Virus genome (UHGV): UHGV-0193111
Direction: 5' to 3' (one strand)
DNA: 8,441 nt
Source of the DNA: a virus
The translations under genes and the position numbers were made by a program. The number at the start of each line of letters is the position of its first letter. Position 1 is the first letter of the stretch. This document shows positions 1 to 8,441 of the stretch, piece by piece. Under the pieces are notes generated by a model that worked only from the letters and a program-made list of their open reading frames with translations, searched no databases and had not been told where the DNA came from.

Positions 1-252
1 AAAACTCAGCGTCGGCTGTGTGTCGCGCTCCTCTTCACTGGCAGGCAGAACGGGTGTGGTTTGTTCAATAAAGGCTTCCAGTTCCTGACGGAGCGCAACC
101 AAATCCACAGAACACGCTTCCAGCGCCTCCCGGGCAGATGGGTTACTGAGCAGCGCCAGTAACAAGTGCTCGACGGTCATAAACTCATGACGGTGCTCGC
201 GCGCTCTGGCGAAAGCCATATTTAAACTGAGTTCCAGTTCTTGATTGAGCAT
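1..252 (-). CDS. clpA: ATP-dependent Clp protease ATP-binding subunit ClpA, N-terminal 84 codons (gene continues beyond window start)
   Basis: Reverse-strand translation from ATG at 252-250 gives MLNQELELSLNMAFARAREHRHEFMTVEHLLLALLSNPSAREALEACSVDL..., which I recognise as the ClpA N-domain. GGAGG-type RBS upstream. Lies 30 bp downstream of clpS, as in the enterobacterial clpS-clpA operon. Absent from the ORF track because it has no in-window stop. Confidence 0.9.
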   Translation of the reverse strand, partial: MLNQELELSLNMAFARAREHRHEFMTVEHLLLALLSNPSAREALEACSVDLVALRQELEAFIEQTTPVLPASEEERDTQPTLSF

Positions 253-282
253 AGGCACCTCCCCCAATTTTTATGCCTGCAT

Positions 283-603
283 TCAGGCTTTTTCTAGCGT
301 ACACAGCAATGGATGCTCATTCTCCCTCGCGTACTTGTTCACCATCGCCACTTTGGTTTCTGCAACCTCGGCGGTAAAGACTCCGCAAATGGCCTTCCCC
401 TGGTAGTGAACAGCGAGCATCAATTGCGTTGCACGTTCTACATCATAAGAAAAGAATTTTTGTAACACGTCAATAACAAACTCCATCGGAGTGTAATCAT
501 CATTGACTAATATCACTTTATACATAGATGGCGGTTTTAGCGCGTCGCGAACTTTTTCTTCCGCCAGTTGATCAAAGTCCAGCCAGTCGTTCGTTTTACC
601 CAT
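283..603 (-). CDS. clpS: ATP-dependent Clp protease adaptor protein ClpS
   Basis: 106-aa ORF ([51 protein letters not shown]...) matches my recollection of E. coli ClpS over its full length. Correct size and position upstream of clpA. Confidence 0.95.
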
Positions 604-777
604 TGTCAGTTATCATCTTCGGTTACGGTTATCGGCAGAACGCCCTGCCGCTGACAAGAGCTTATTTGCCTGACCAATCTACTCCACATGATAGATAACT
701 ATCATTTATAACATTTCATTGATTAGTCTTTATTTTTCACTGTGTTACAAATAACAACTCTGTCAAAAACAGCGAAA

Positions 778-833
778 TTAACTACACCATTAACTACACC
801 ATTTCACGAACAATATCGAACAACCACGAACAA
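778..833. repeat. Direct-repeat cluster: tandem 13-mer TTAACTACACCAT x2 (778-803) followed by three CGAACAA copies at 10-bp phasing (807-813, 817-823, 827-833)
   Basis: Read directly from the sequence. 10-bp periodicity suggests same-face protein binding sites (regulator or recombinase arm-type sites). Function unknown. Confidence 0.5.
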
Positions 834-1264
834 AGATCAACACGCTTTAACCGTTATCATTTTCCGGCCATCCGTTATGAAGCTGGTGGATGTTCCCCGA
901 TATGGGGATCCCCACCTACCCACTCCCCCCATACCGGAATTTTTTTCCGGTTAAACGTTAATCAGGCTGGTGGGCTTTACATACCCTTGATCACGGTAAT
1001 GATGATTCAGGTGCGTACCTTTTCCCCCAGTGGGGTAAAAGCTCCAACCGTAACGATGTTCGTTGTGGTTGCCTTGATGGTCTGCGTGGTCATTATGACC
1101 ATTCAGAATTTGAAGGGTGATGTTTCCGATCTCCTCAAATTGAGGTTGCCGGAAATATCAACGGGTTAGGCCAGAGTGCAAATTTGCGCTTTGCTTTAAG
1201 TTCAGCGAGTAACCGAAGGCGTAATTCCGCCCTCGGTACTCACATATGAGAAACGATATTTCTT

Positions 1265-1413
1265 CCACCGATACCCTTTATTTGGGTATCGCGAGTAAGC
1301 CCCAAAATCTGGGTGTTACTCTTACTACCCAAACTACGGGTAGTTTCCGTAGTTTCATAGTCGAGTTGCAGATCTGCAACTCGCCACCAGTTGCTAAGTG
1401 CATTTTTGCACTT
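1265..1413. promoter_or_regulatory. Cluster of inverted repeats: CGATACCC-n7-GGGTATCG (~1268-1290), AAACTAC-GG-GTAGTTT plus extra GTAGTTT (1331-1355), 22-bp perfect palindrome CGAGTTGCAGATCTGCAACTCG (1362-1383), AAGTGCA-TTTT-TGCACTT (~1396-1413)
   Basis: Read directly from the sequence. Lies between the chromosomal flank and the first island ORF. Candidate operator, recombination or attachment region; function not determinable by eye. Confidence 0.4.
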
Positions 1414-1430
1414 TCGGTAATATCAACCAG

Positions 1431-1712
1431 TTACCGCCGTAAGTGCTCCGGCTTCCTCCACTGGTAAGTATTTTTCGCGCTCTCCCTCCGTTGTTGAGAA
1501 CGGCGACGGTATGCCAGCAACTCAAGAACTCTGGTTCGTATGTTGCGCATATCCACGCCATTAAGTTCTATACCATCACGGCGCATCACCTCCGCAACAA
1601 CACGCGCATAATTTTCAGCGGTCACGCTGTCCGGCTGCATGGCCTGTTCGTCAACCTGCTGGCTGATTCCGGCAACGCGGCGGATTAATCCCAGTATTTC
1701 GGCTTCTGTCAT
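1431..1712 (-). CDS. Hypothetical protein, 93 aa, Arg-rich C-terminus (the ORF-track version extends to 1820 but would run across cosN)
   Basis: ORF-track ORF 1431..1820; I prefer the internal ATG at 1712 (MTEAEILGLIRRVAG...) because the longer form overlaps the cos site at 1768-1798. No family recognised. Confidence 0.35.
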   Translation of the reverse strand: MTEAEILGLIRRVAGISQQVDEQAMQPDSVTAENYARVVAEVMRRDGIELNGVDMRNIRTRVLELLAYRRRSQQRRESAKNTYQWRKPEHLRR

Positions 1713-1767
1713 TGTGCCCCCATCGTTCTGAAAGTCTGGTGTCGTCGGGTCCTTCCTGGAATTATGG

Positions 1768-1920
1768 CCCGTTACGGGGCGGCGACCTCGCGGTTTTTCG
1801 CTATTTATGAGCTTTTTCATGGGGGGGTGGTGGTTTTGTTGCTTGCTCTATCTCCATGAATAAAAAGGGAAAGATAACACCAACACACCAACCTGAAACC
1901 TTGACCAAGTTGGGATATTG
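1768..1920 (+). other. cos site 1: lambda-type cosN (cohesive-end sequence GGGCGGCGACCT at 1777-1788) plus a diverged cosB-like leader with tandem ACACCAAC repeat (1877-1892), directly upstream of terS
   Basis: 1768-1812 cccgttacggggcggcgacctcgcggtttttcgctatttatga is near-identical to the phage lambda left end and cosN junction as I recall it (GGGCGGCGACCTCGCGGGTTTTCGCTATTTATGA). Same position and orientation relative to the Nu1-like gene as in lambda. Confidence 0.8.
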
Positions 1921-2487: not shown

Positions 2488-2663
2488 CTGAGAAACGACA
2501 TGAAAGCGTCATAAATCGCCATTTTAGATGATTACCGTGTCGTTTCTTTTTATTGTATATCTATTTAAAAACAAATAGTTATGTTCGAGAAGTACCGACA
2601 TGCTTTTTCCAGAAAAATTTTCATAAACAGATAAAAACCGCGAGGTCGCCGCCCCGTAACGGG
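2488..2663 (-). other. cos site 2 (inverted): lambda-type cosN (reverse complement of GGGCGGCGACCT at 2643-2654) with lambda-like cosB, including an inverted pair of R-site-like elements TGTCGTTTC (2538-2546) and GAAACGACA (2492-2500)
   Basis: 2633-2663 is the exact reverse complement of 1768-1798 (31 bp). The reverse complement of 2488-2640 parallels the lambda cosB region as I recall it (TTTATGAAAATTTTTCTGG; CATAACTATTTGTTTTTAAATAG; AAAAGAAACGACACGG; CATGTCGTTTCTC vs lambda TTTATGAAAATTTTCCGG; CATAACTTAATGTTTTTATTTAAAATA; AAAGGAAACGACAGG; CTCTGTCGTTTCC). Confidence 0.75.
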
Positions 2664-2716: not shown

Positions 2717-3130
2717 TCAGATGGTTTTCAGTATGCGATCGATGTCGCCGTCATCGCCCTGGTTTCTGCCATCGTATGCCATGCCAGCTGATACGGCTTG
2801 CGGGCTGTGCATGTCCATAAAGTTTTCAAAGGCTGCGGTAAGCTCTGGTGCAACCTTTGGGCGCTCCTGCTCTATGGTCATGTTCAGGATTTCACGAGCA
2901 TTATCGACGCTAATACATGGCACGTTTGCCATTGCACGTAACAGCGGCTGATAGTCTTTATGCTCATGAAGCGCCATAATCGCATCAGCGCGCGGCTTGT
3001 CCTGCTCTTCCAGTTTGTTGAGTTGATATACGGCCTCGTAGGTTGATAAACCTCTGTCAGCCATTGCCCGCGCTTCTTCTTTAAATTTACTCGCCAGCGG
3101 TAGCGCCATGATGCTTTCATTCGTTGCCAT
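2717..3130 (-). CDS. Hypothetical protein, 137 aa, last gene of the capsid operon
   Basis: ORF with ATG at 3130 preceded by AGGGGGAA RBS, 12 bp after the decoration-protein stop; followed by a terminator. No family recognised; not obviously lambda FI or FII. Confidence 0.65.
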   Translation of the reverse strand: MATNESIMALPLASKFKEEARAMADRGLSTYEAVYQLNKLEEQDKPRADAIMALHEHKDYQPLLRAMANVPCISVDNAREILNMTIEQERPKVAPELTAAFENFMDMHSPQAVSAGMAYDGRNQGDDGDIDRILKTI

Positions 3131-3142
3131 CGTTCCCCCTGC

Positions 3143-3478
3143 TTATCGGGCCAGCGGCTGAACGGATACGCCGGAACCCGCAAAGGCGGCGCATTTTTTC
3201 GCATCGGTGTCGACGCTCTCAGGCCAGTTAACGGCGGCAATATTGAATATCCCCGTCTTGTAACACTGTGCTGATTTCTGCTTTGACGTGTCCACAGGAT
3301 ACGAAGTCAGATAAACAGCCTTGCCAGATTCCTGACCATCCCACGGCTTAAACTCGCCATTGTCCGCCAGCATCAGCGGGGTAAATTCCTGAATAACGCC
3401 AGCATCAGCGGCAAAATGTACCAGCGTCGTTGATACCTGCTGACTGCCTGCAAATAACTCAATGTATGGAGTGTTCAT
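3143..3478 (-). CDS. Head decoration protein, lambda gpD-like
   Basis: Product shares blocks with lambda gpD as I recall it (TPLML, WDG, YK-G-F, WPE, KK-AFAG, S-S-V) and has similar length (111 aa from ATG 3478; ORF track uses GTG 3487, 114 aa). Stop of the capsid gene lies 2 nt upstream of the GTG. Confidence 0.8.
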   Translation of the reverse strand: MNTPYIELFAGSQQVSTTLVHFAADAGVIQEFTPLMLADNGEFKPWDGQESGKAVYLTSYPVDTSKQKSAQCYKTGIFNIAAVNWPESVDTDAKKCAAFAGSGVSVQPLAR

Positions 3479-3489
3479 AGAATCCACCG

Positions 3490-4545
3490 TTAACCAATTT
3501 TGACGGTAACAAATTTGCGAATATCTGCCGGAACAGGCTGCGGTGCGCTGTGTGTCTGCACGTACTCAATCGCCGGATCGCCGTCTTCAATCCAGTTTTT
3601 CGGGTAAAACATGTTTTGCGTTGCGCCCGTTCTTACCGCTTCCTGTTCCATAATCGCACCATAGGCCACCAGCCCTTTATTGTTGGTGTTGCCCAGGACC
3701 AGCAAATCAGGCTCAAGGAAATATTTTTCTGTGCCGTCGCTGTCAGTGTATTTGCCGGAATAGACGATAAGGGCCAGATCACCAAGATAGCCTTTAAAGC
3801 TCACCACTTCTCCCAGGTTTTTACATGCCAGCTCTGCGGCGGATTCTGAACCACGGGAGAGATCGTACAGTTCACGGAATTTTTTAAAGCTGCGTAACAT
3901 GCGCCATACATCAACGCCCATAATCATGACGTTTGCGGGGCAACCTGCCTGATCTGCGTATAGCTCAATGTCATAGATTGGGTCGTGTATGTCTTTGTCC
4001 TGCTCTGACCATTTTTTACCGTCGGCCTGCTCTATGATGTTTTTTTCCGGTATCTTCCAGTCGATTTCATAGCGTTCTATGCCTTCGCCCTCAATGATGT
4101 TTTTTCCGGTCGTTATCGCATTCACCGCCATCCATTCCACGCGCGCTTTAATGGCGTTTATCTGGCGGCGCATGTTGCCAGTAATCAGGCGCATACGGCG
4201 GTAGGTAGGGTCGTTAAGCTGTGCCGGATCTTCTCCAGCCATGCGCATTATTGTTTTTAATGGATCGATTTCGTGTTTTGGCTTCATGTAGCCAGGGCGA
4301 ATAATGCTGGTTTCGTACCCTTTATCGCGCTGAACCTGGCTACCAACCATAGGCGAACAAAACGCCGACATAGTGACTTCTTCAATATCCAGGTTATCTA
4401 ACATGATGTCCTGTGTGTTGAATGTCGCCACGTTCGGGAAAAACAGCGCGGTAAACAGCGGACTGAATTTAAATTCCGCAATATCCTCGCGATTCAGGTA
4501 CGCGAAAAGCTGGTTAGTGTTAAGTGCCATTGCTTTGACTGCCAT
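3490..4545 (-). CDS. Major capsid protein, lambda gpE family
   Basis: 351-aa product shares many conserved blocks with lambda gpE as I recall it (FKF-PLF; PGY-KPKHE; DP-YRR-R; WS-RDK--DP-YDIE-YA; RSFK; GYLGD-A-VYSG-Y; LGNT--GL--YG-I; YPKNW--GDPA). ATG at 4545-4543 with GGGGGTGA RBS; start overlaps the stop of the upstream ORF (TAATG). Confidence 0.9.
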   Translation of the reverse strand: MAVKAMALNTNQLFAYLNREDIAEFKFSPLFTALFFPNVATFNTQDIMLDNLDIEEVTMSAFCSPMVGSQVQRDKGYETSIIRPGYMKPKHEIDPLKTIMRMAGEDPAQLNDPTYRRMRLITGNMRRQINAIKARVEWMAVNAITTGKNIIEGEGIERYEIDWKIPEKNIIEQADGKKWSEQDKDIHDPIYDIELYADQAGCPANVMIMGVDVWRMLRSFKKFRELYDLSRGSESAAELACKNLGEVVSFKGYLGDLALIVYSGKYTDSDGTEKYFLEPDLLVLGNTNNKGLVAYGAIMEQEAVRTGATQNMFYPKNWIEDGDPAIEYVQTHSAPQPVPADIRKFVTVKIG

Positions 4546-4988: not shown

Positions 4989-5399
4989 TCAGAACGGAAT
5001 ATCATCACCGTAGGGGTCATCGTCTCCCGCTGGTGGCTGATTACCCTGTGCGCCTGTGGTTTTGCGTCTGTTCCCGCCAGGACGTGCCGCACGGGCACTG
5101 ATTACGCTGTCTGCAATAACCTGATAACCCTGCCGCGTTTCCCCGTTCTGTCCGGTCCACTGGCTTATCTGCATCACGCCAGATATGCTGGCAACGTCGC
5201 CTTTTTGATGTTTAGCCAGGAAGTCGGCCTGCTTACCAAATGCCATCACCGATAGCCATAACGTAGCCGTTCCGTCATCTGCCTGGCTGCACGGAAGGGG
5301 GACCGCCATACGCGCCAGCGTCATCGGTGTGCCCTTGCTGGTCTGTTTTACCTGCGGGTCGTCCACCAGCCGCCCGTAAGCTGCTATCTGTGCTGTCAT
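4989..5399 (-). CDS. ssb: Single-stranded DNA-binding protein
   Basis: 136-aa product with an SSB-like OB-fold core (FGK...KGD...ISG...W...GE-R) and a Gly/Pro-rich linker ending in the acidic tail DDDPYGDDIPF, the hallmark SSB C-terminal motif. Start ATG overlaps the upstream ORF stop (ATGA). Confidence 0.85.
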   Translation of the reverse strand: MTAQIAAYGRLVDDPQVKQTSKGTPMTLARMAVPLPCSQADDGTATLWLSVMAFGKQADFLAKHQKGDVASISGVMQISQWTGQNGETRQGYQVIADSVISARAARPGGNRRKTTGAQGNQPPAGDDDPYGDDIPF

Positions 5400-5660: not shown

Positions 5661-5999
5661 TTATATATATATATAGAAACATGTGCGGGTTATGCGGGTT
5701 ATTGGGTTATCTTAGCGTGCTAACCATTTTTTATCCTTTTATATCAGTATTTTGCAAAACACCCTGTTTATTATTTGCTCACCACGTAACCCGCAAAACG
5801 CTCAAAATAACCCGCAAACGGGGTTTTTTCTGCGGGTTACGCATGACTGTCCGGTGTTACTTCAGTTATTCGCCTGCGGGTTATAATCGTGCTTTTGCGG
5901 GTTATAAATGCCCTTTTGCGGGTTACGTGCGGGTTATTGGTTTCCTTTATATTCATGCACTTAATACACTTATACACAGGATAACCCGCATAACCCGCA
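5661..5999. repeat. Putative replication origin: iteron array of 11 perfect TGCGGGTTA 9-mers (plus strand at 5684, 5693, 5831, 5875, 5896, 5917, 5928; inverted at 5787, 5808, 5982, 5991) with AT-rich tracts including (TA)n at 5661-5676
   Basis: Repeats read directly from the sequence; several pairs spaced 21 bp (5787/5808; 5875/5896/5917), tandem pairs at both edges in opposite orientation. Located immediately downstream of the primase/helicase gene, as is typical for Pri-Rep plus ori modules of phage-inducible islands. Confidence 0.75.
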
Positions 6000-6021: not shown

Positions 6022-8145
6022 TTAATCTTCATCATCAGGCTGGAACATCAGCACGTAAAAAACATGCTGCTTACCCCCAATCTTGCCCAGCGCCTTTTTT
6101 TTGTATCGGCGATCGCTTCCCTTCTCCAGCATTCCGGCAGCATCCAGGGCACGCGCAAAATGCGCCGGATTAAATCCCTTCGCTATCTCACTATCAAACA
6201 CGTGCGGGAACGTGTAATAGCGCATCTCGTCATCTTCGTTGCGAATGCTCCCTTTTCTGTATCCGGCAAGCTCTTTAATCGGTAAATCACGCTCATCTGT
6301 ATTGGGGTACGGAAGGTAGCGGCTAAACCCAAACGACGACAAAAACGCCTCAGCCTGTTCAACCATCTGTTTAAATTCCCTGTTACCCGTGCCGAACTCC
6401 TTCACCCAGGCATTAAAGTTATGCTGTATCGCGTCGCAGCATTCCTGCACGACCCAGCCAGTTACATGACCGGAAAGCACAAGCGCGGCCTCCAGTATGG
6501 CGAAACGTTCACCCACGCGGTGGACCTGCTCGCCGTAACTCTCCGGTATCAGGTTGCGCCACCGTTCGCGGCATTCCCTTACCGTGTCCTTTGCCTCCTG
6601 CTGGTGGCCTGCCAGCCATTTAACCCACTCACGACCCGCCGCCCCGTGATTTGCTGTCCAGGCATCCTTTAACGCGTCAGCATGTTCCTTACCGTTGCTG
6701 TATTCGTGAAATTTCGTGGCTTTTTCCATCGGAACGTTAAGCAGTCGGACAAGCTGCCCCGCCTTAACTTTTATCCCCTCACTTTTGAGGAATGTCTCAA
6801 CGTCCATTTCTCCGGTGCTGATTGCCACCGTTCGCCAGTGTTTGATCTCCCTGTTGCCGCCATCCTTCGCCCCCTGCAATTTCCCTGAACCGTTAAACAG
6901 CGTATAAGCAGACGTTGACACTTCCCGCGCATTTCCGGCCTGGCCTATCTCATCCAGTGGTAAAAGCCCGTCATTATGGGCCTCGGCCTCATTGGCAATA
7001 CCTAACGCCGTGCCGTACCAGGTCAGCCGCTGCGCGTCCGGCTCTCCCCATAAACTTGATGCGATGTTCTGCGTGGTGGTCTTACCTGCCGATGACTGTT
7101 CGAAAAGATGCACCCCGAAGCCGTCAGCACCCACAAGGCCAATTAAAGGCGCTGCCAGTGACGTTGCCACACCCAGCATCATTGAGGCATTACCGCCAGC
7201 CAGCCGCGCCACGCTGTCGCGCCAGCCATCCGCCGTGCCAGCCACGGAATAACCGTTAATCGCGGCGCTTTTTCCGGTAAACAGGATCGGTTTTTCAGAT
7301 TCACCAATGATCGAACCGTCCGGCATGATGTACGCGCCAAAATGCCAGCCCGTTGTTGTGCTTAACTGCCATTCCTCATGGCTTCCGCTTAACTGCATCC
7401 AGTCCGCCAGGATTGCCCTGTATTTGCCGTTGGTTGTCACGTTCAGCCCGTGATCTTTAAGTAACCGCCAGCCGTCACGGTCGCCGATACCACCACACGG
7501 GATCGCCATTGTGATGACTTCATGGTTTGCGGTTTTTTTCCAGCGCATCACGCGGTAATGCTCTTTACCGATCGTCCCCGTTCCCAGTAGTTCAAGCGGA
7601 GAACATAACCACGTCTCAGGCCGGATAATTTCGCCTGACTGCTTATCCACTTTGGGCGTTACCCAGAAAACACCATCGGCGCGACTTTCAACGCGTGGCT
7701 TTAATTCGTCATCGCTATGACTTCCGGTATCTTTTTTCTTTACCGGAAGCTCAATAACCAGACCATCAGAAAGATTCTGCCGCTCACGGGCCAGATATTC
7801 GCGCCAGTTCTCCACCTTCTGAACGTGCATTCCATCAGGGTAAAAATTTGCATCCTGTACGCCTGCCGCCGCCAGCTTCTGACCAATCGCCTTGATCATT
7901 ACTGGCTCAAGATGTCCGGCCCTGAATATGCGTACTGATTTTCGGCCTTCCGGCACAATTTGCAGCTTATCCAGTTCGGCAAGTTGTTGCTCTCCAAGCC
8001 AGACAGGAGGCACGTTATCGCCAGCCAGTCGCCCGTCCTGTTCCTGCCACTGCTTCGCATGTGCCCACGCATCACTACCCGCAAAAATGATGACTTCCGT
8101 CATTTTGTCACGTGGCTGGTGTTTTAAATTTGGCGCTTTTTTCAT
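6022..8145 (-). CDS. Replication initiator of primase/helicase type (P-loop NTPase; Pri-Rep-like); exact family not resolved
   Basis: 707 aa from ATG 8145 with GGAGAG RBS (ORF track uses GTG 8160, 712 aa). Contains a Walker A-like SSAGKTT and a Walker B-like LLPLDE motif. Large size and position directly upstream of an iteron array. Start overlaps the stop of the upstream ORF (ATGA). Confidence 0.8.
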   Translation of the reverse strand: MKKAPNLKHQPRDKMTEVIIFAGSDAWAHAKQWQEQDGRLAGDNVPPVWLGEQQLAELDKLQIVPEGRKSVRIFRAGHLEPVMIKAIGQKLAAAGVQDANFYPDGMHVQKVENWREYLARERQNLSDGLVIELPVKKKDTGSHSDDELKPRVESRADGVFWVTPKVDKQSGEIIRPETWLCSPLELLGTGTIGKEHYRVMRWKKTANHEVITMAIPCGGIGDRDGWRLLKDHGLNVTTNGKYRAILADWMQLSGSHEEWQLSTTTGWHFGAYIMPDGSIIGESEKPILFTGKSAAINGYSVAGTADGWRDSVARLAGGNASMMLGVATSLAAPLIGLVGADGFGVHLFEQSSAGKTTTQNIASSLWGEPDAQRLTWYGTALGIANEAEAHNDGLLPLDEIGQAGNAREVSTSAYTLFNGSGKLQGAKDGGNREIKHWRTVAISTGEMDVETFLKSEGIKVKAGQLVRLLNVPMEKATKFHEYSNGKEHADALKDAWTANHGAAGREWVKWLAGHQQEAKDTVRECRERWRNLIPESYGEQVHRVGERFAILEAALVLSGHVTGWVVQECCDAIQHNFNAWVKEFGTGNREFKQMVEQAEAFLSSFGFSRYLPYPNTDERDLPIKELAGYRKGSIRNEDDEMRYYTFPHVFDSEIAKGFNPAHFARALDAAGMLEKGSDRRYKKKALGKIGGKQHVFYVLMFQPDDED

Positions 8146-8441
8146 TTCTGCTCTCTCCACGCGGCAATCATGTTTTTTAGTTCCTGTAGTTTTTTATCAA
8201 CATCCATACATGACACATGGTTATTTCTGGAAAGCGGGATTTCCCGCCTGAATCTGCTAATAAAGATCTCCACGTTCAGCGAACTAAGAAATGAATAGCC
8301 ATCACGGATAAAATACACACGGTCAAACATCAGTTCTTTTACCGTTACTCTGTTACCGTTCTTATCCAGATAAATAGCGCCGGGGATAATTTGGGGGTGT
8401 GCATAACCGCTGGCAGTCAAGCCAGATAAATATGTTCTCAT
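8142..8441 (-). CDS. Hypothetical protein, at least 99 aa; may continue beyond the window end
   Basis: Open frame runs to the window edge (an ATG happens to sit at 8441-8439); stop overlaps the primase start. No family recognised; not AlpA-like. Confidence 0.45.
   Translation of the reverse strand: MRTYLSGLTASGYAHPQIIPGAIYLDKNGNRVTVKELMFDRVYFIRDGYSFLSSLNVEIFISRFRREIPLSRNNHVSCMDVDKKLQELKNMIAAWREQK

What the first reader, a model, noticed from the sequence alone, without database searches (positions are those of the whole stretch)
1265..1413. Cluster of inverted repeats, including a 22-bp perfect palindrome, at the left edge of the element
Four distinct palindromic elements occur within about 150 bp, including CGAGTTGCAGATCTGCAACTCG (1362-1383) and the GTAGTTT-containing repeats (1331-1355). 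They lie between the chromosomal flank and the first island ORF. Such density is unusual for ordinary intergenic DNA and suggests a recombination site, an operator array or a structured RNA.
Basis: seen in the sequence. Interest (0 to 1): 0.5.

Follow-up and report, generated by a model that had tools for sequence, protein, structure and literature searches.

The report
Hairpin cluster ending a phage satellite
A real, conserved run of five back-to-back hairpin-forming sequences lies in the non-coding tail of a phage-parasitising island (PICI); it is not the island's edge or integration site, and it most likely marks the end of the island's long transcript, though this has not been tested.

Summary
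Window 1265-1413 carries five adjacent, different hairpins (a 1269-1291, b 1293-1321, c 1324-1361, d 1362-1383 which is the perfect 22-bp palindrome, e 1396-1413). They fold far better than shuffled sequence (z -7 to -9). The element is a cos-type PICI inserted between clpS and yljB. Its junction is at about 695-709, and the integrase arm repeats are at 778-833, so the cluster lies about 560 bp inside the element. It sits directly after the stop codon of the last operon gene, a 93-aa ORF at 1431-1712 on the minus strand. The cluster occurs in 704 of 5426 complete E. coli genomes and in a Salmonella PICI. It is always in this position, in PICIs with different integration sites, replicases and packaging modules. 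It is embedded in a PICI-restricted mosaic of short hairpins, each followed by an IHF-consensus site. Hairpin e keeps its position while its stem sequence changes at least 8 times. The a-d core is more conserved than the neighbouring gene, yet about half of related elements lack it. The best reading (about 0.4) is a transcript-boundary, RNA-end stabilising module that works like REP/BIME elements. It is not a member of that family. Function is untested. Hairpin d also occurs inside KilA-N genes of lambdoid prophages.

The parts
283..603 (-). Host gene clpS (chromosomal flank; not part of the element)
   Evidence: A 106-aa ORF, annotated as clpS in the matching loci L001 and L003. K-12 matches window 1-709.
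695..705 (.). Attachment-site identity block ATAACTATCAT; the true left junction of the PICI
   Evidence: K-12 homology ends at 705-709. The same block sits at the integrase-proximal end of L003, next to yljB.
778..833 (+). Probable integrase arm-type repeats: TTAACTACACC twice (778-788, 790-800) and CACGAACAA/TCGAACAA three times (805-813, 816-823, 825-833)
   Evidence: Read from the sequence. The same motifs occur beside the integrase gene in L003. Binding is inferred.
1118..1170 (+). Palindromic unit (CCTCAAATTGAGG inside a 21-nt imperfect inverted repeat) followed by the IHF-consensus site TATCAACGGGTTA (1156-1168)
   Evidence: It belongs to the PICI-restricted unit family.
1172..1193 (+). 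Hairpin CAGAGTGCAAATTTGCGCTTTG followed by CTTTAAGTTC; terminator-like on the plus strand. It is a second, rearranged copy of the hairpin-e type of unit.
   Evidence: (D2, I5).
1213..1236 (.). Imperfect hairpin CCGAAGGCGTAATTCCGCCCTCGG; part of the left flank shared by many copies of the cluster
   Evidence: Sequence. Conserved at 95-100% in relatives, over about 60% of the 1170-1264 segment in most of them.
1269..1291 (.). Hairpin a: CGATACCC / GGGTATCG, 7-nt loop
   Evidence: Two of its pairs show compensatory changes among 22 variants.
1293..1321 (.). Hairpin b: GAGTAA..TTACTC enclosing CCCA..TGGG; its loop is nearly invariant
1324..1361 (.). Hairpin c: AAACTACGG / CCGTAGTTT inside ACTA..TAGT. 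It has an A-tract on the 5' side and a T-tract on the 3' side, so it looks like a weak bidirectional terminator. It contains a 9-bp tandem duplication (GTAGTTTCC) that some relatives lack.
   Evidence: A related hairpin c unit occurs alone in other PICI tails.
1362..1383 (.). Hairpin d: perfect 22-bp palindrome CGAGTTGCAGATCTGCAACTCG. The same 21-22 nt occur inside KilA-N domain genes of lambdoid prophages.
1396..1413 (.). Hairpin e: AGTGCA / TGCACT. A hairpin is kept at this position 18-35 nt after the ORF stop codon, with at least 8 different stem sequences among relatives.
1421..1433 (+). IHF-consensus site TATCAACCAGTTA, overlapping the stop codon of the 93-aa ORF
   Evidence: This is one of only two perfect matches in the window. 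The motif is enriched and oriented across PICI tails. IHF binding was not tested.
1431..1712 (-). Last gene of the PICI operon: a conserved 93-aa protein of unknown function (phrog_1561). The cluster begins 18 nt after its stop codon.
   Evidence: The model has three helices at low confidence and no fold match.
1775..1790 (+). Lambda-type cosN (CGGGGCGGCGACCTCG); context only, not part of the cluster
   Evidence: An inverted second copy lies at 2641-2656, and 2567-2690 matches the phage 21 cos.

Best explanation
The cluster is the best-conserved block of a non-coding, palindrome-rich tail. This tail closes the long one-directional operon of enterobacterial phage-inducible chromosomal islands. 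It lies between the last operon gene and the integrase arm or cargo region. The proposed mechanism is inferred, not shown. When the operon (minus strand) is transcribed, the successive stem-loops form in the 3' untranslated RNA. There they block 3'-to-5' exonucleases and slow or stop RNA polymerase. On the other strand, hairpins c and e and the 1172-1193 hairpin, each with a short T-run, damp transcription that enters from cargo genes or from the host flank. Together with the oriented IHF-type sites around it, the cluster would act as a two-way transcript boundary and RNA-end stabiliser. It would insulate the satellite's late genes from the neighbouring DNA, here clpS-clpA. This is the way REP/BIME elements work at the ends of E. 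coli operons. The position, the structure-preserving variation and the conservation are shown. Transcription, termination, RNA stabilisation and IHF binding are inferred.
For: Five different hairpins fold far better than shuffles on both strands. The cluster starts 18 nt after the stop codon of the last operon gene. It holds this relative position in every relative examined, whatever the integration site, replicase or packaging module. At the position of hairpin e a hairpin is kept with at least 8 unrelated stem sequences, which is the signature of selection on structure. Hairpin a has two compensatory pairs. The four core palindromes are all different, which fits folding better than binding of one protein. 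The surrounding tail is a mosaic of similar hairpin units. In L004 a convergent cargo gene (abortive infection) ends just left of the cluster, so the cluster lies between convergent units. Hairpins c and e and the 1172-1193 hairpin have short T-runs on the plus strand. Across the 49 loci that carry the a-d core (one lacks a scored ORF match), the core is at least as conserved as the adjacent ORF DNA, so it is under constraint or was spread recently.
Against: None of hairpins a, b, d and e is followed by a U-tract in the operon direction, and c has only a short one (UUUGGG), so none is a canonical intrinsic terminator. The scan called only 1172-1193, on the plus strand. Folding energies and G-U counts show no preferred strand. 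A pure structural role does not explain why the a-d core is conserved in sequence, loops of b and c included (94% mean column identity). About half of related PICIs with enough downstream sequence lack the core, so it is dispensable. No expression data were available.
Confidence: 0.4

Rival explanations
1. The cluster is a DNA-level architectural element. With its flanking oriented IHF sites it would be bent into a nucleoprotein complex, or extruded as hairpins in single-stranded DNA. It would serve replication (a primosome or single-strand initiation site for lagging-strand priming during concatemer synthesis) or packaging.
For: The two perfect IHF-consensus sites in the window bracket the cluster (1156-1168, 1421-1433). 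Such sites are 30-fold enriched and co-oriented in PICI tails: 23 against 3, with 0.8 expected. Sequence conservation of the core, loops included, fits protein or DNA recognition. In five contigs two direct copies of the core flank a ~310-bp origin-like iteron module. The DNA fold has z -9.1.
Against: The core is shared by PICIs with different replicases (DUF927 primase, other primase families, RepA helicase) and with different packaging systems (lambda-type cos with an Nu1-like gene, and HK97-type TerS/TerL/HNH). It therefore does not co-vary with any element-encoded machine. The window's own origin iterons are at 5685-5998 and share nothing with the cluster. cosN is about 390 bp away. The core is absent from about half of relatives.
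Confidence: 0.2
2. The cluster is a regulatory RNA or decoy aimed at the helper phage. The a-d core would be an accessory non-coding RNA, processed from the operon 3' UTR or from a plus-strand read-through transcript. Its self-complementary hairpin d would pair with the identical palindrome in lambdoid KilA-N (Bro-network) gene transcripts. Alternatively, the double-stranded site would bind the phage KilA-N DNA-binding protein.
For: The 22-mer of hairpin d is found exactly in a prophage KilA-N gene (L011) and at 21/22 in SfII, Stx2a and other lambdoid phages, where it encodes ELQICNS; 86 IMG/VR contigs carry it. My own estimate is that an exact 22-mer would turn up by chance in that collection well below once. 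The core is optional yet highly conserved, like cargo. RNA regulators embedded in Bro-network genes have precedent in satellite P4: CI RNA and seqA (PMC10111431).
Against: No promoter lies inside or beside the conserved block, and its flanks differ between copies. There is no Rfam match, including C4/isrK. Hairpins a and b have no phage counterpart. The similarity to KilA-N genes covers only about 33-39 nt, with no wider protein similarity. The phage copies may simply be close relatives of one gene, so the match may be a recombination relic.
Confidence: 0.12
3. The cluster is functionally neutral or selfish palindromic filler. These would be repeat units that accumulate and shuffle in the one non-essential stretch of the satellite, conserved only because PICIs exchange this end by recent recombination.
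For: The tail is mosaic: units are shuffled, duplicated or missing between relatives. The core is absent from many PICIs. Core identity can be 98-100% where the neighbouring ORF is 84-91%, as expected after recent transfer of a block. Little covariation is seen inside a-d.
Against: The cluster is retained even in the shortest tails, about 365 bp in the O157:H7 helper-embedded PICI. It is present in Salmonella at 92%. Boundaries are sharp and the same in three different left-flank contexts. A hairpin is maintained at the position of hairpin e despite complete stem turnover, which argues for selection. PICIs are under tight size constraint for packaging (established knowledge).
Confidence: 0.15
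4. One reading: a site-specific recombination (attachment) site, or an array of operators for one regulator.
For: The region has a high density of dyad symmetry and IHF-type sites nearby.
Against: The junction and arm repeats are at 695-833. The cluster is shared across PICIs with different integration sites. The five palindromes have no common half-site. The stem of hairpin e is not conserved.
Confidence: 0.04

Closest known systems
REP/BIME elements of E. coli, especially BIME-1 (RIB/RIP: palindromic units with an IHF site), known to stabilise upstream mRNA and attenuate transcription (from my own knowledge of the literature)
   Same: Both are imperfect palindromes in mosaic arrays at the 3' ends of transcription units. 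Both have an IHF-consensus site next to the palindromes, stems that vary while hairpins persist, and no coding capacity.
   Different: There is no REP consensus. The units occur in only 21% of E. coli genomes, typically at one place each, and in every context examined that place is a PICI tail; REP/BIME elements are scattered in hundreds of copies. The a-d core is a fixed 121-bp block of four distinct hairpins conserved in sequence.
Intrinsic and bidirectional transcription terminators between convergent genes
   Same: The cluster sits right after a stop codon, and in some relatives between convergent units. Hairpin c has an A-tract, a GC stem and a T-tract. The 1172-1193 hairpin scores as a terminator.
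   Different: Hairpins a, b, d and e lack a U-tract in the operon direction. Five hairpins in series are far more than a terminator needs.
Lambda-type attP arms (integrase arm sites plus IHF sites)
   Same: It is non-coding DNA at the end of an integrative element and carries IHF-consensus sites.
   Different: The real arm repeats and core are at 695-833. The cluster does not change with integration specificity.
Satellite P4 immunity RNA elements (CI, seqA/seqC) embedded in a Bro-network gene (PMC10111431)
   Same: A short structured element is shared between a satellite and a Bro/KilA-N type gene. Regulation would work at the RNA level through complementarity.
   Different: There is no C4/isrK Rfam hit here. 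The element lies in the 3' tail, not in the satellite's Bro zone. Only hairpin d is shared. No evidence of transcription.
Single-strand initiation / primosome assembly signals of plasmids and phage G4 (clusters of 2-3 hairpins in about 100-150 nt; from my own knowledge)
   Same: It is a compact run of stable hairpins of similar total length in a replicon that makes concatemers.
   Different: There is no sequence similarity or functional evidence. The cluster is independent of the element's primase type.

Membership tests
Integrase attachment site (attP core or arm) | Lies at or next to the element/chromosome junction and contains the identity block | tested here: not met
   The junction is at 695-709. 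The cluster starts at 1265.
Integrase attachment site (attP core or arm) | Sequence changes with integrase and integration site; arm motifs are repeated at both ends of the element | tested here: not met
   The same cluster is found at seven or more integration sites. The motifs shared by both ends are those at 778-833, not the cluster.
Intrinsic (Rho-independent) terminator | G+C-rich stem-loop directly followed by a U-tract on the transcribed strand | tested here: inconclusive
   The scan finds none inside 1265-1413 and finds only 1172-1193 on the plus strand. By eye, c (both strands) and e (plus strand) have 3-U tails, while a, b and d have none.
REP/BIME (including RIB/RIP) | Member of a genome-wide family present in hundreds of extragenic copies per E. 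coli chromosome with the REP consensus | tested here: not met
   The units are in 1156 of 5426 genomes, with a median of one place per genome. The cluster is in 704 of 5426. It is absent from the K-12 locus.
REP/BIME (including RIB/RIP) | Palindromic units at the 3' ends of operons, combined with an IHF-consensus site | tested here: met
   Position after the last ORF. WATCAANNNNTTR at 1156-1168 and 1421-1433. Enrichment and orientation across tails. Actual IHF binding is not testable here.
Known structured RNA family (Rfam 15) | Covariance-model match at or near the gathering score | tested here: not met
   No hit at gathering over the whole window. In 700-2000 at E up to 5 there was only a chance-level NsiR1 hit, outside the cluster.
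Operator array for one dimeric regulator | Several copies of one dyad-symmetric consensus | tested here: not met
   The five palindromes share no half-site. The 22-mer is unique in the window.
PICI replication origin | [quoted passage not shown] | tested here: not met
   The TGCGGGTTA iterons are at 5685-5998, and none are in the cluster.
cos packaging site | cosN-type sequence with flanking cosQ and cosB | tested here: not met
   cosN copies are at 1775-1790 and 2641-2656. The cluster has no similarity to phage cos regions.
Protein-coding gene | Conserved ORF with start signal, family match and codon-position bias of substitutions | tested here: inconclusive
   Frames are open on both strands (a by-product of the palindromes). 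There is no Pfam hit. Start and stop codons differ between variants, and one variant is frameshifted. Variable columns fall 15/12/6 by codon position. RefSeq leaves the region unannotated in nearly all genomes.

The most novel reading that the evidence does not exclude
The conserved a-d block may be an optional, satellite-borne cis or RNA element that communicates with the helper phage. Hairpin d is identical to a palindrome embedded in KilA-N (Bro-network) genes of lambdoid prophages. It could act as a decoy or sensor, either by RNA-RNA pairing of the self-complementary 22-mer or as a binding site for the KilA-N DNA-binding protein. The flanking IHF sites would shape the complex. That would be a new non-coding interface between phage satellites and their helpers.
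Probability: 0.1. Interest if true: 0.7.

Novelty: new variant of a known kind. Interest (0 to 1): 0.35.

Why it matters
PICIs are widespread vehicles of virulence and anti-phage genes, and their coding modules have been dissected in detail. Their non-coding tail has not: I found no paper that describes this cluster. The cluster is a conserved 121-bp block present in about 13% of complete E. coli genomes and in Salmonella. It is independent of the element's integrase, replicase and packaging type. That makes it a ready landmark for the boundary between the core operon and the 3' cargo hotspot. It is also a candidate insulator for engineered PICIs. If the KilA-N link is functional, it would be a new point of contact with helper phages. 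If it is only a transcript-end structure, it is ordinary biology in a new setting.

Tried and rejected
- Rfam at gathering threshold (whole window) and at E up to 5 (700-2000): nothing relevant.
- tRNA/tmRNA scan: none.
- Promoter scan: no promoter for an independent RNA gene.
- BLAST of 1100-1750 against 50,697 phage records: no match. Hairpins a-b alone gave only chance hits.
- Exact-sequence literature search and a keyword search: no description found.
- Structure prediction of the 93-aa ORF, to see whether it could bind the palindromes: low confidence (pLDDT 67), three helices, no significant PDB match. Pfam and NCBIfam found nothing.
- Covariance model of a-d: no diverged full copies in the loci that lack the core, only isolated c or d units.
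- Strand assignment from folding energies and G-U counts: no preference.
- P4 crr-like or origin idea: the cluster shares nothing with the window's iterons.
- HK022 Roi (from memory, a protein that binds a site in its own gene next to an IHF site): HK022 roi lacks the palindrome, and the original paper is not held.
- KilA-N pseudogene idea: protein similarity is limited to ELQICNSP.
- I tried to locate EcCICFT073 in CFT073 to see whether the experimental model carries the cluster. Two 49-kb fetches missed it.

Full report
WHAT THE WINDOW IS

Window 1-709 is E. coli chromosome: the 3' part of clpA, clpS at 283-603 on the minus strand, and its upstream region. K-12 MG1655 matches only this stretch, at 99.9%, and the match ends inside the 3' end of the small gene yljB. 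Everything to the right is a phage-inducible chromosomal island (PICI) whose integrase lies beyond the right end of the window.

The element's genes run leftward on the minus strand:
- a DUF4222 gene at 8142-8441
- a DUF927 primase/helicase (pri-rep) at 6022-8160
- the replication origin, with eleven TGCGGGTTA iterons, at 5685-5998
- SSB at 4989-5399
- a lambda gpE-like capsid protein at 3490-4545
- a gpD-like decoration protein at 3143-3487
- a scaffold-like ORF at 2717-3130
- a 93-aa ORF of unknown function (phrog_1561) at 1431-1712

An Nu1-like gene on the plus strand (1918-2463) is flanked by two inverted lambda/21-type cosN sites (1775-1790 plus strand, 2641-2656 minus strand).

This is the architecture of EcCICFT073-type cos PICIs: capsid and decoration homologues, two cos sites, and an origin 3' of pri-rep (PMC6092414, PMC6739421). 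Related elements sit at the same clpS/yljB site in other strains, with the integrase next to yljB.

CHECKING THE OBSERVATION

The 22-bp perfect palindrome is at 1362-1383. It is unique in the window even with three mismatches allowed, and none is expected by chance. The GTAGTTT repeats are as described.

Folding shows five consecutive hairpins: a 1269-1291, b 1293-1321, c 1324-1361, d 1362-1383 and e 1396-1413. The z-scores against dinucleotide shuffles are -7.3 (RNA, minus strand), -8.9 (RNA, plus strand) and -9.1 (DNA). None of 200 shuffles reached the native energy in any run. The density is therefore real and far beyond chance.

WHERE THE CLUSTER SITS

The cluster is not at the edge of the element. 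The attachment identity block ATAACTATCAT is at 695-705 and recurs at the integrase-proximal end of the related element in strain SCU-172. Direct repeats of arm-site type (TTAACTACACC twice; CACGAACAA/TCGAACAA three times) at 778-833 are also found beside that integrase gene.

The cluster is therefore about 560 bp inside the element. It begins 18 nt after the stop codon of the 93-aa ORF, which is the last gene of the operon.

DISTRIBUTION AND CONTEXT

The 171-bp region has a match in 704 of 5426 complete E. coli genomes (428 of them over at least 80% of its length), usually once per genome and almost always on the chromosome. A Salmonella enterica PICI at thiM carries it at 92% identity. It has no counterpart in 50,697 phage records when searched as a block.

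In every context examined it lies downstream of the same 93-aa ORF, at the integrase-distal end of a PICI. The PICIs themselves differ in three ways:
- Packaging module: cos PICIs with an Nu1-like gene, capsid-forming PICIs with an HK97-type protease/portal/HNH/TerS/TerL module, and elements with a ClpP-capsid fusion.
- Replicase: DUF927, other primase families, or a RepA helicase.
- Integration site: clpS/yljB, tRNA-Ile near mug, thiM, yejO, ydgV, and, for helper-embedded PICIs, prophage capsid or terminase genes.

This rules out an integrase-specific recombination site. It also argues against a cis site for any element-encoded replication or packaging protein.

ANATOMY OF THE TAIL

The whole stretch from the ORF to the attachment arm (about 840-1430 here) is a patchwork of palindromic modules shared among PICIs in shuffled order.

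A recurrent unit is a short hairpin with a variable stem (CCTCAAATTGAGG, CCCCCAATGGGGG, CAGCCGTTGGCTG, CGCAATTTTGCG and others). It is followed by TTYCCGAAAATATCAACGGGTTAG. That tail matches the IHF core consensus WATCAANNNNTTR.
- The only two perfect matches in the 8.4-kb window are in such units, at 1156-1168 and 1421-1433, on either side of the cluster.
- Across 14 kb of PICI tails there are 23 perfect matches in one orientation, 3 in the other, and 0.8 expected.
- The units occur in 1156 of 5426 genomes, at about one place each, so they are not a genome-wide repeat family and appear PICI-restricted.

CONSERVATION PATTERN

At the position of hairpin e (18-35 nt after the stop codon) relatives keep a hairpin but use at least eight unrelated stems: AGTGCA/TGCACT, TTCGCC/GGCGAA, GGCCCA/TGGGTT, AACGCA/TGCGTT, AGCTCA/TGAGCT and others. 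This is the classical signature of selection on structure.

The a-d core (1265-1385) behaves differently.
- It has sharp boundaries in three different left-flank contexts.
- It has 22 distinct variants with 94% mean column identity. The loops of b and c are nearly invariant.
- Only two pairs show compensatory changes, both in hairpin a. Covariation support for a-d is therefore weak for lack of variation.
- Across the 49 loci that carry the core (one lacks a scored ORF match), it is at least as conserved as the DNA of the adjacent ORF, often 98-100% against 84-91%.
- About half of the related elements with enough downstream sequence lack it. A covariance model finds only isolated c-like or d units in them.

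The core is thus optional but constrained, or recently spread.

Five contigs carry two direct copies about 435 bp apart. These flank a fragment that resembles the left half of this window's origin, with the same GCGGGTTA iterons.

WHAT IT IS NOT
- It matches no Rfam family.
- No promoter-like site lies in or beside it.
- It has no canonical terminator in the operon direction. Only the 1172-1193 hairpin, on the plus strand, passes the terminator scan. Hairpins c and e have three-U tails.
- Folding energies and G-U counts give no strand preference.
- The five palindromes share no half-site, so an operator array for one regulator is unlikely.
- It is very unlikely to be coding. Frames are open on both strands because of the palindromes, but start and stop codons are not conserved, one variant is frameshifted, there is no family match, and RefSeq leaves it unannotated in nearly all genomes.
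- The neighbouring 93-aa protein gave only a low-confidence three-helix model with no fold match. It offers no clue to a DNA-binding partner.

AN UNEXPECTED LINK

The 22-mer of hairpin d occurs exactly in a KilA-N domain gene of a prophage contig (L011). It occurs at 21/22 in the KilA-N genes of Shigella phage SfII, Stx2a phages and other lambdoid phages, where it encodes ELQICNS. In a capped scan, 86 IMG/VR contigs carried this version.

The similarity extends over only about 33-39 nt. It does not extend at the protein level. Hairpins a and b have no phage counterpart.

It may be a recombination relic. It may also reflect a functional site shared by satellites and lambdoid phages. RNA regulators embedded in Bro-network genes are known from satellite P4 (PMC10111431). 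HK022 Roi, which I recalled as binding its own gene next to an IHF site, lacks the palindrome.

MOST LIKELY MECHANISM

I commit, at about 0.4, to a transcript-boundary module. The stem-loops would form in the 3' untranslated end of the long PICI operon RNA, where they protect it from exonucleases and slow polymerase. On the opposite strand, the hairpins with short T-runs would damp transcription coming from cargo genes or from the host flank.

The supporting points are:
- The cluster directly follows the last stop codon.
- In L004 it lies between the operon and a convergent abortive-infection gene.
- Here the operon points into clpS-clpA.
- Structure is preserved where sequence is free.
- The arrangement resembles BIME-1/RIB elements (palindromes plus an IHF site at operon ends), whose roles in mRNA stabilisation and transcription attenuation are established. 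I state this from my own knowledge.

Membership in REP/BIME is rejected, because there is no REP consensus and no genome-wide dispersal. The claim is 'works like', not 'is a'.

The weak points are the lack of U-tracts, the unexplained sequence conservation of a-d, and the absence of expression data.

The rivals are:
- an IHF-shaped DNA element for replication or packaging (0.2)
- a helper-directed RNA or decoy centred on hairpin d (0.12)
- neutral or selfish palindromic filler spread by recombination (0.15)

VERDICT

The feature is real and statistically strong. Interest is moderate (0.35). It would rise if the KilA-N link or a cis role in satellite transfer were shown.

Noticed in passing
window 1746-1818 and 2613-2685 (cosN at 1775-1790 plus strand and 2641-2656 minus strand), flanking 1918-2463: Two inverted lambda/21-type cos sites bracket the Nu1-like (TerS/Rpp-like) gene. 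That gene is on the plus strand here, but in relatives such as L029 it is co-oriented with the operon. The ~870-bp segment therefore looks inverted, presumably by recombination between the inverted cos repeats. In SCU-172 (L003) the two cos copies are only about 450 bp apart with no gene between them.
   Followed up: partly
window 882-889, 966-973, 5029-5036, 6600-6607 (plus strand); 3666-3673, 5363-5370 (minus strand): There are six Chi sites (GCTGGTGG) in 8.4 kb, against 0.25 expected from shuffles. Two are in the non-coding tail. Chi-like GCTGGTGG also recurs in the tails of other PICIs. This may protect linear or rolling-circle PICI DNA from RecBCD.
   Followed up: partly
L027 4693-5001; also L009, L012, L015/L082, L018: In some capsid-forming PICIs, two direct copies of the a-d core flank a ~310-bp origin-like module: three GCGGGTTA iterons, an A+T-rich stretch, then three inverted iterons. 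The module is 78% identical to the left half of this window's origin (5664-5817). It is distinct from the host element's own iteron cluster (L015 2051-2166). It could be a decoy or incompatibility determinant against competing PICIs, or a recombination relic.
   Followed up: partly
window 1056-1169 plus strand (within the TTG-start ORF 987-1169): A small hydrophobic ORF, MFVVVALMVCVVIMTIQNLKGDVSDLLKLRLPEISTG, has a promoter-like site at 976-1003 upstream and a terminator-like hairpin at 1172-1193 downstream. Its hydrophobic core is conserved in other PICI tails. It could be a small membrane peptide or type I toxin-like gene. It also overlaps conserved palindromes (TGGTCATTATGACCA), so it may be spurious.
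   Followed up: partly
window 1362-1383; L011 5502-5525; L110 (phage SfII) 1511-1532: The 22-bp palindrome of hairpin d is also a coding stretch (ELQICNS) in KilA-N domain genes of many lambdoid prophages. All examined copies use the codons that keep the near-palindrome.
   Followed up: yes
window 1713-1820 minus strand: The 129-aa reading of the last ORF (start at 1820) overlaps cosN. Nearly all homologues listed are about 93 aa and start at the ATG at 1712, so the N-terminal extension is probably not translated.
   Followed up: partly
window 778-833 and L003 about 19810-19950: The motifs TTAACTACACC and (C/T)ACGAACA recur at both ends of the element. They are probably integrase arm-type binding sites of the clpS/yljB-specific PICI integrase.
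   Followed up: partly
window 900-950: Further palindromes are shared with other PICI tails: ATGGGGATCCCCA at about 903-915, and CCGGAATTTTTTTCCGG at about 935-951. A chance-level Rfam NsiR1 hit (E 2.9) falls on this stretch.
   Followed up: no
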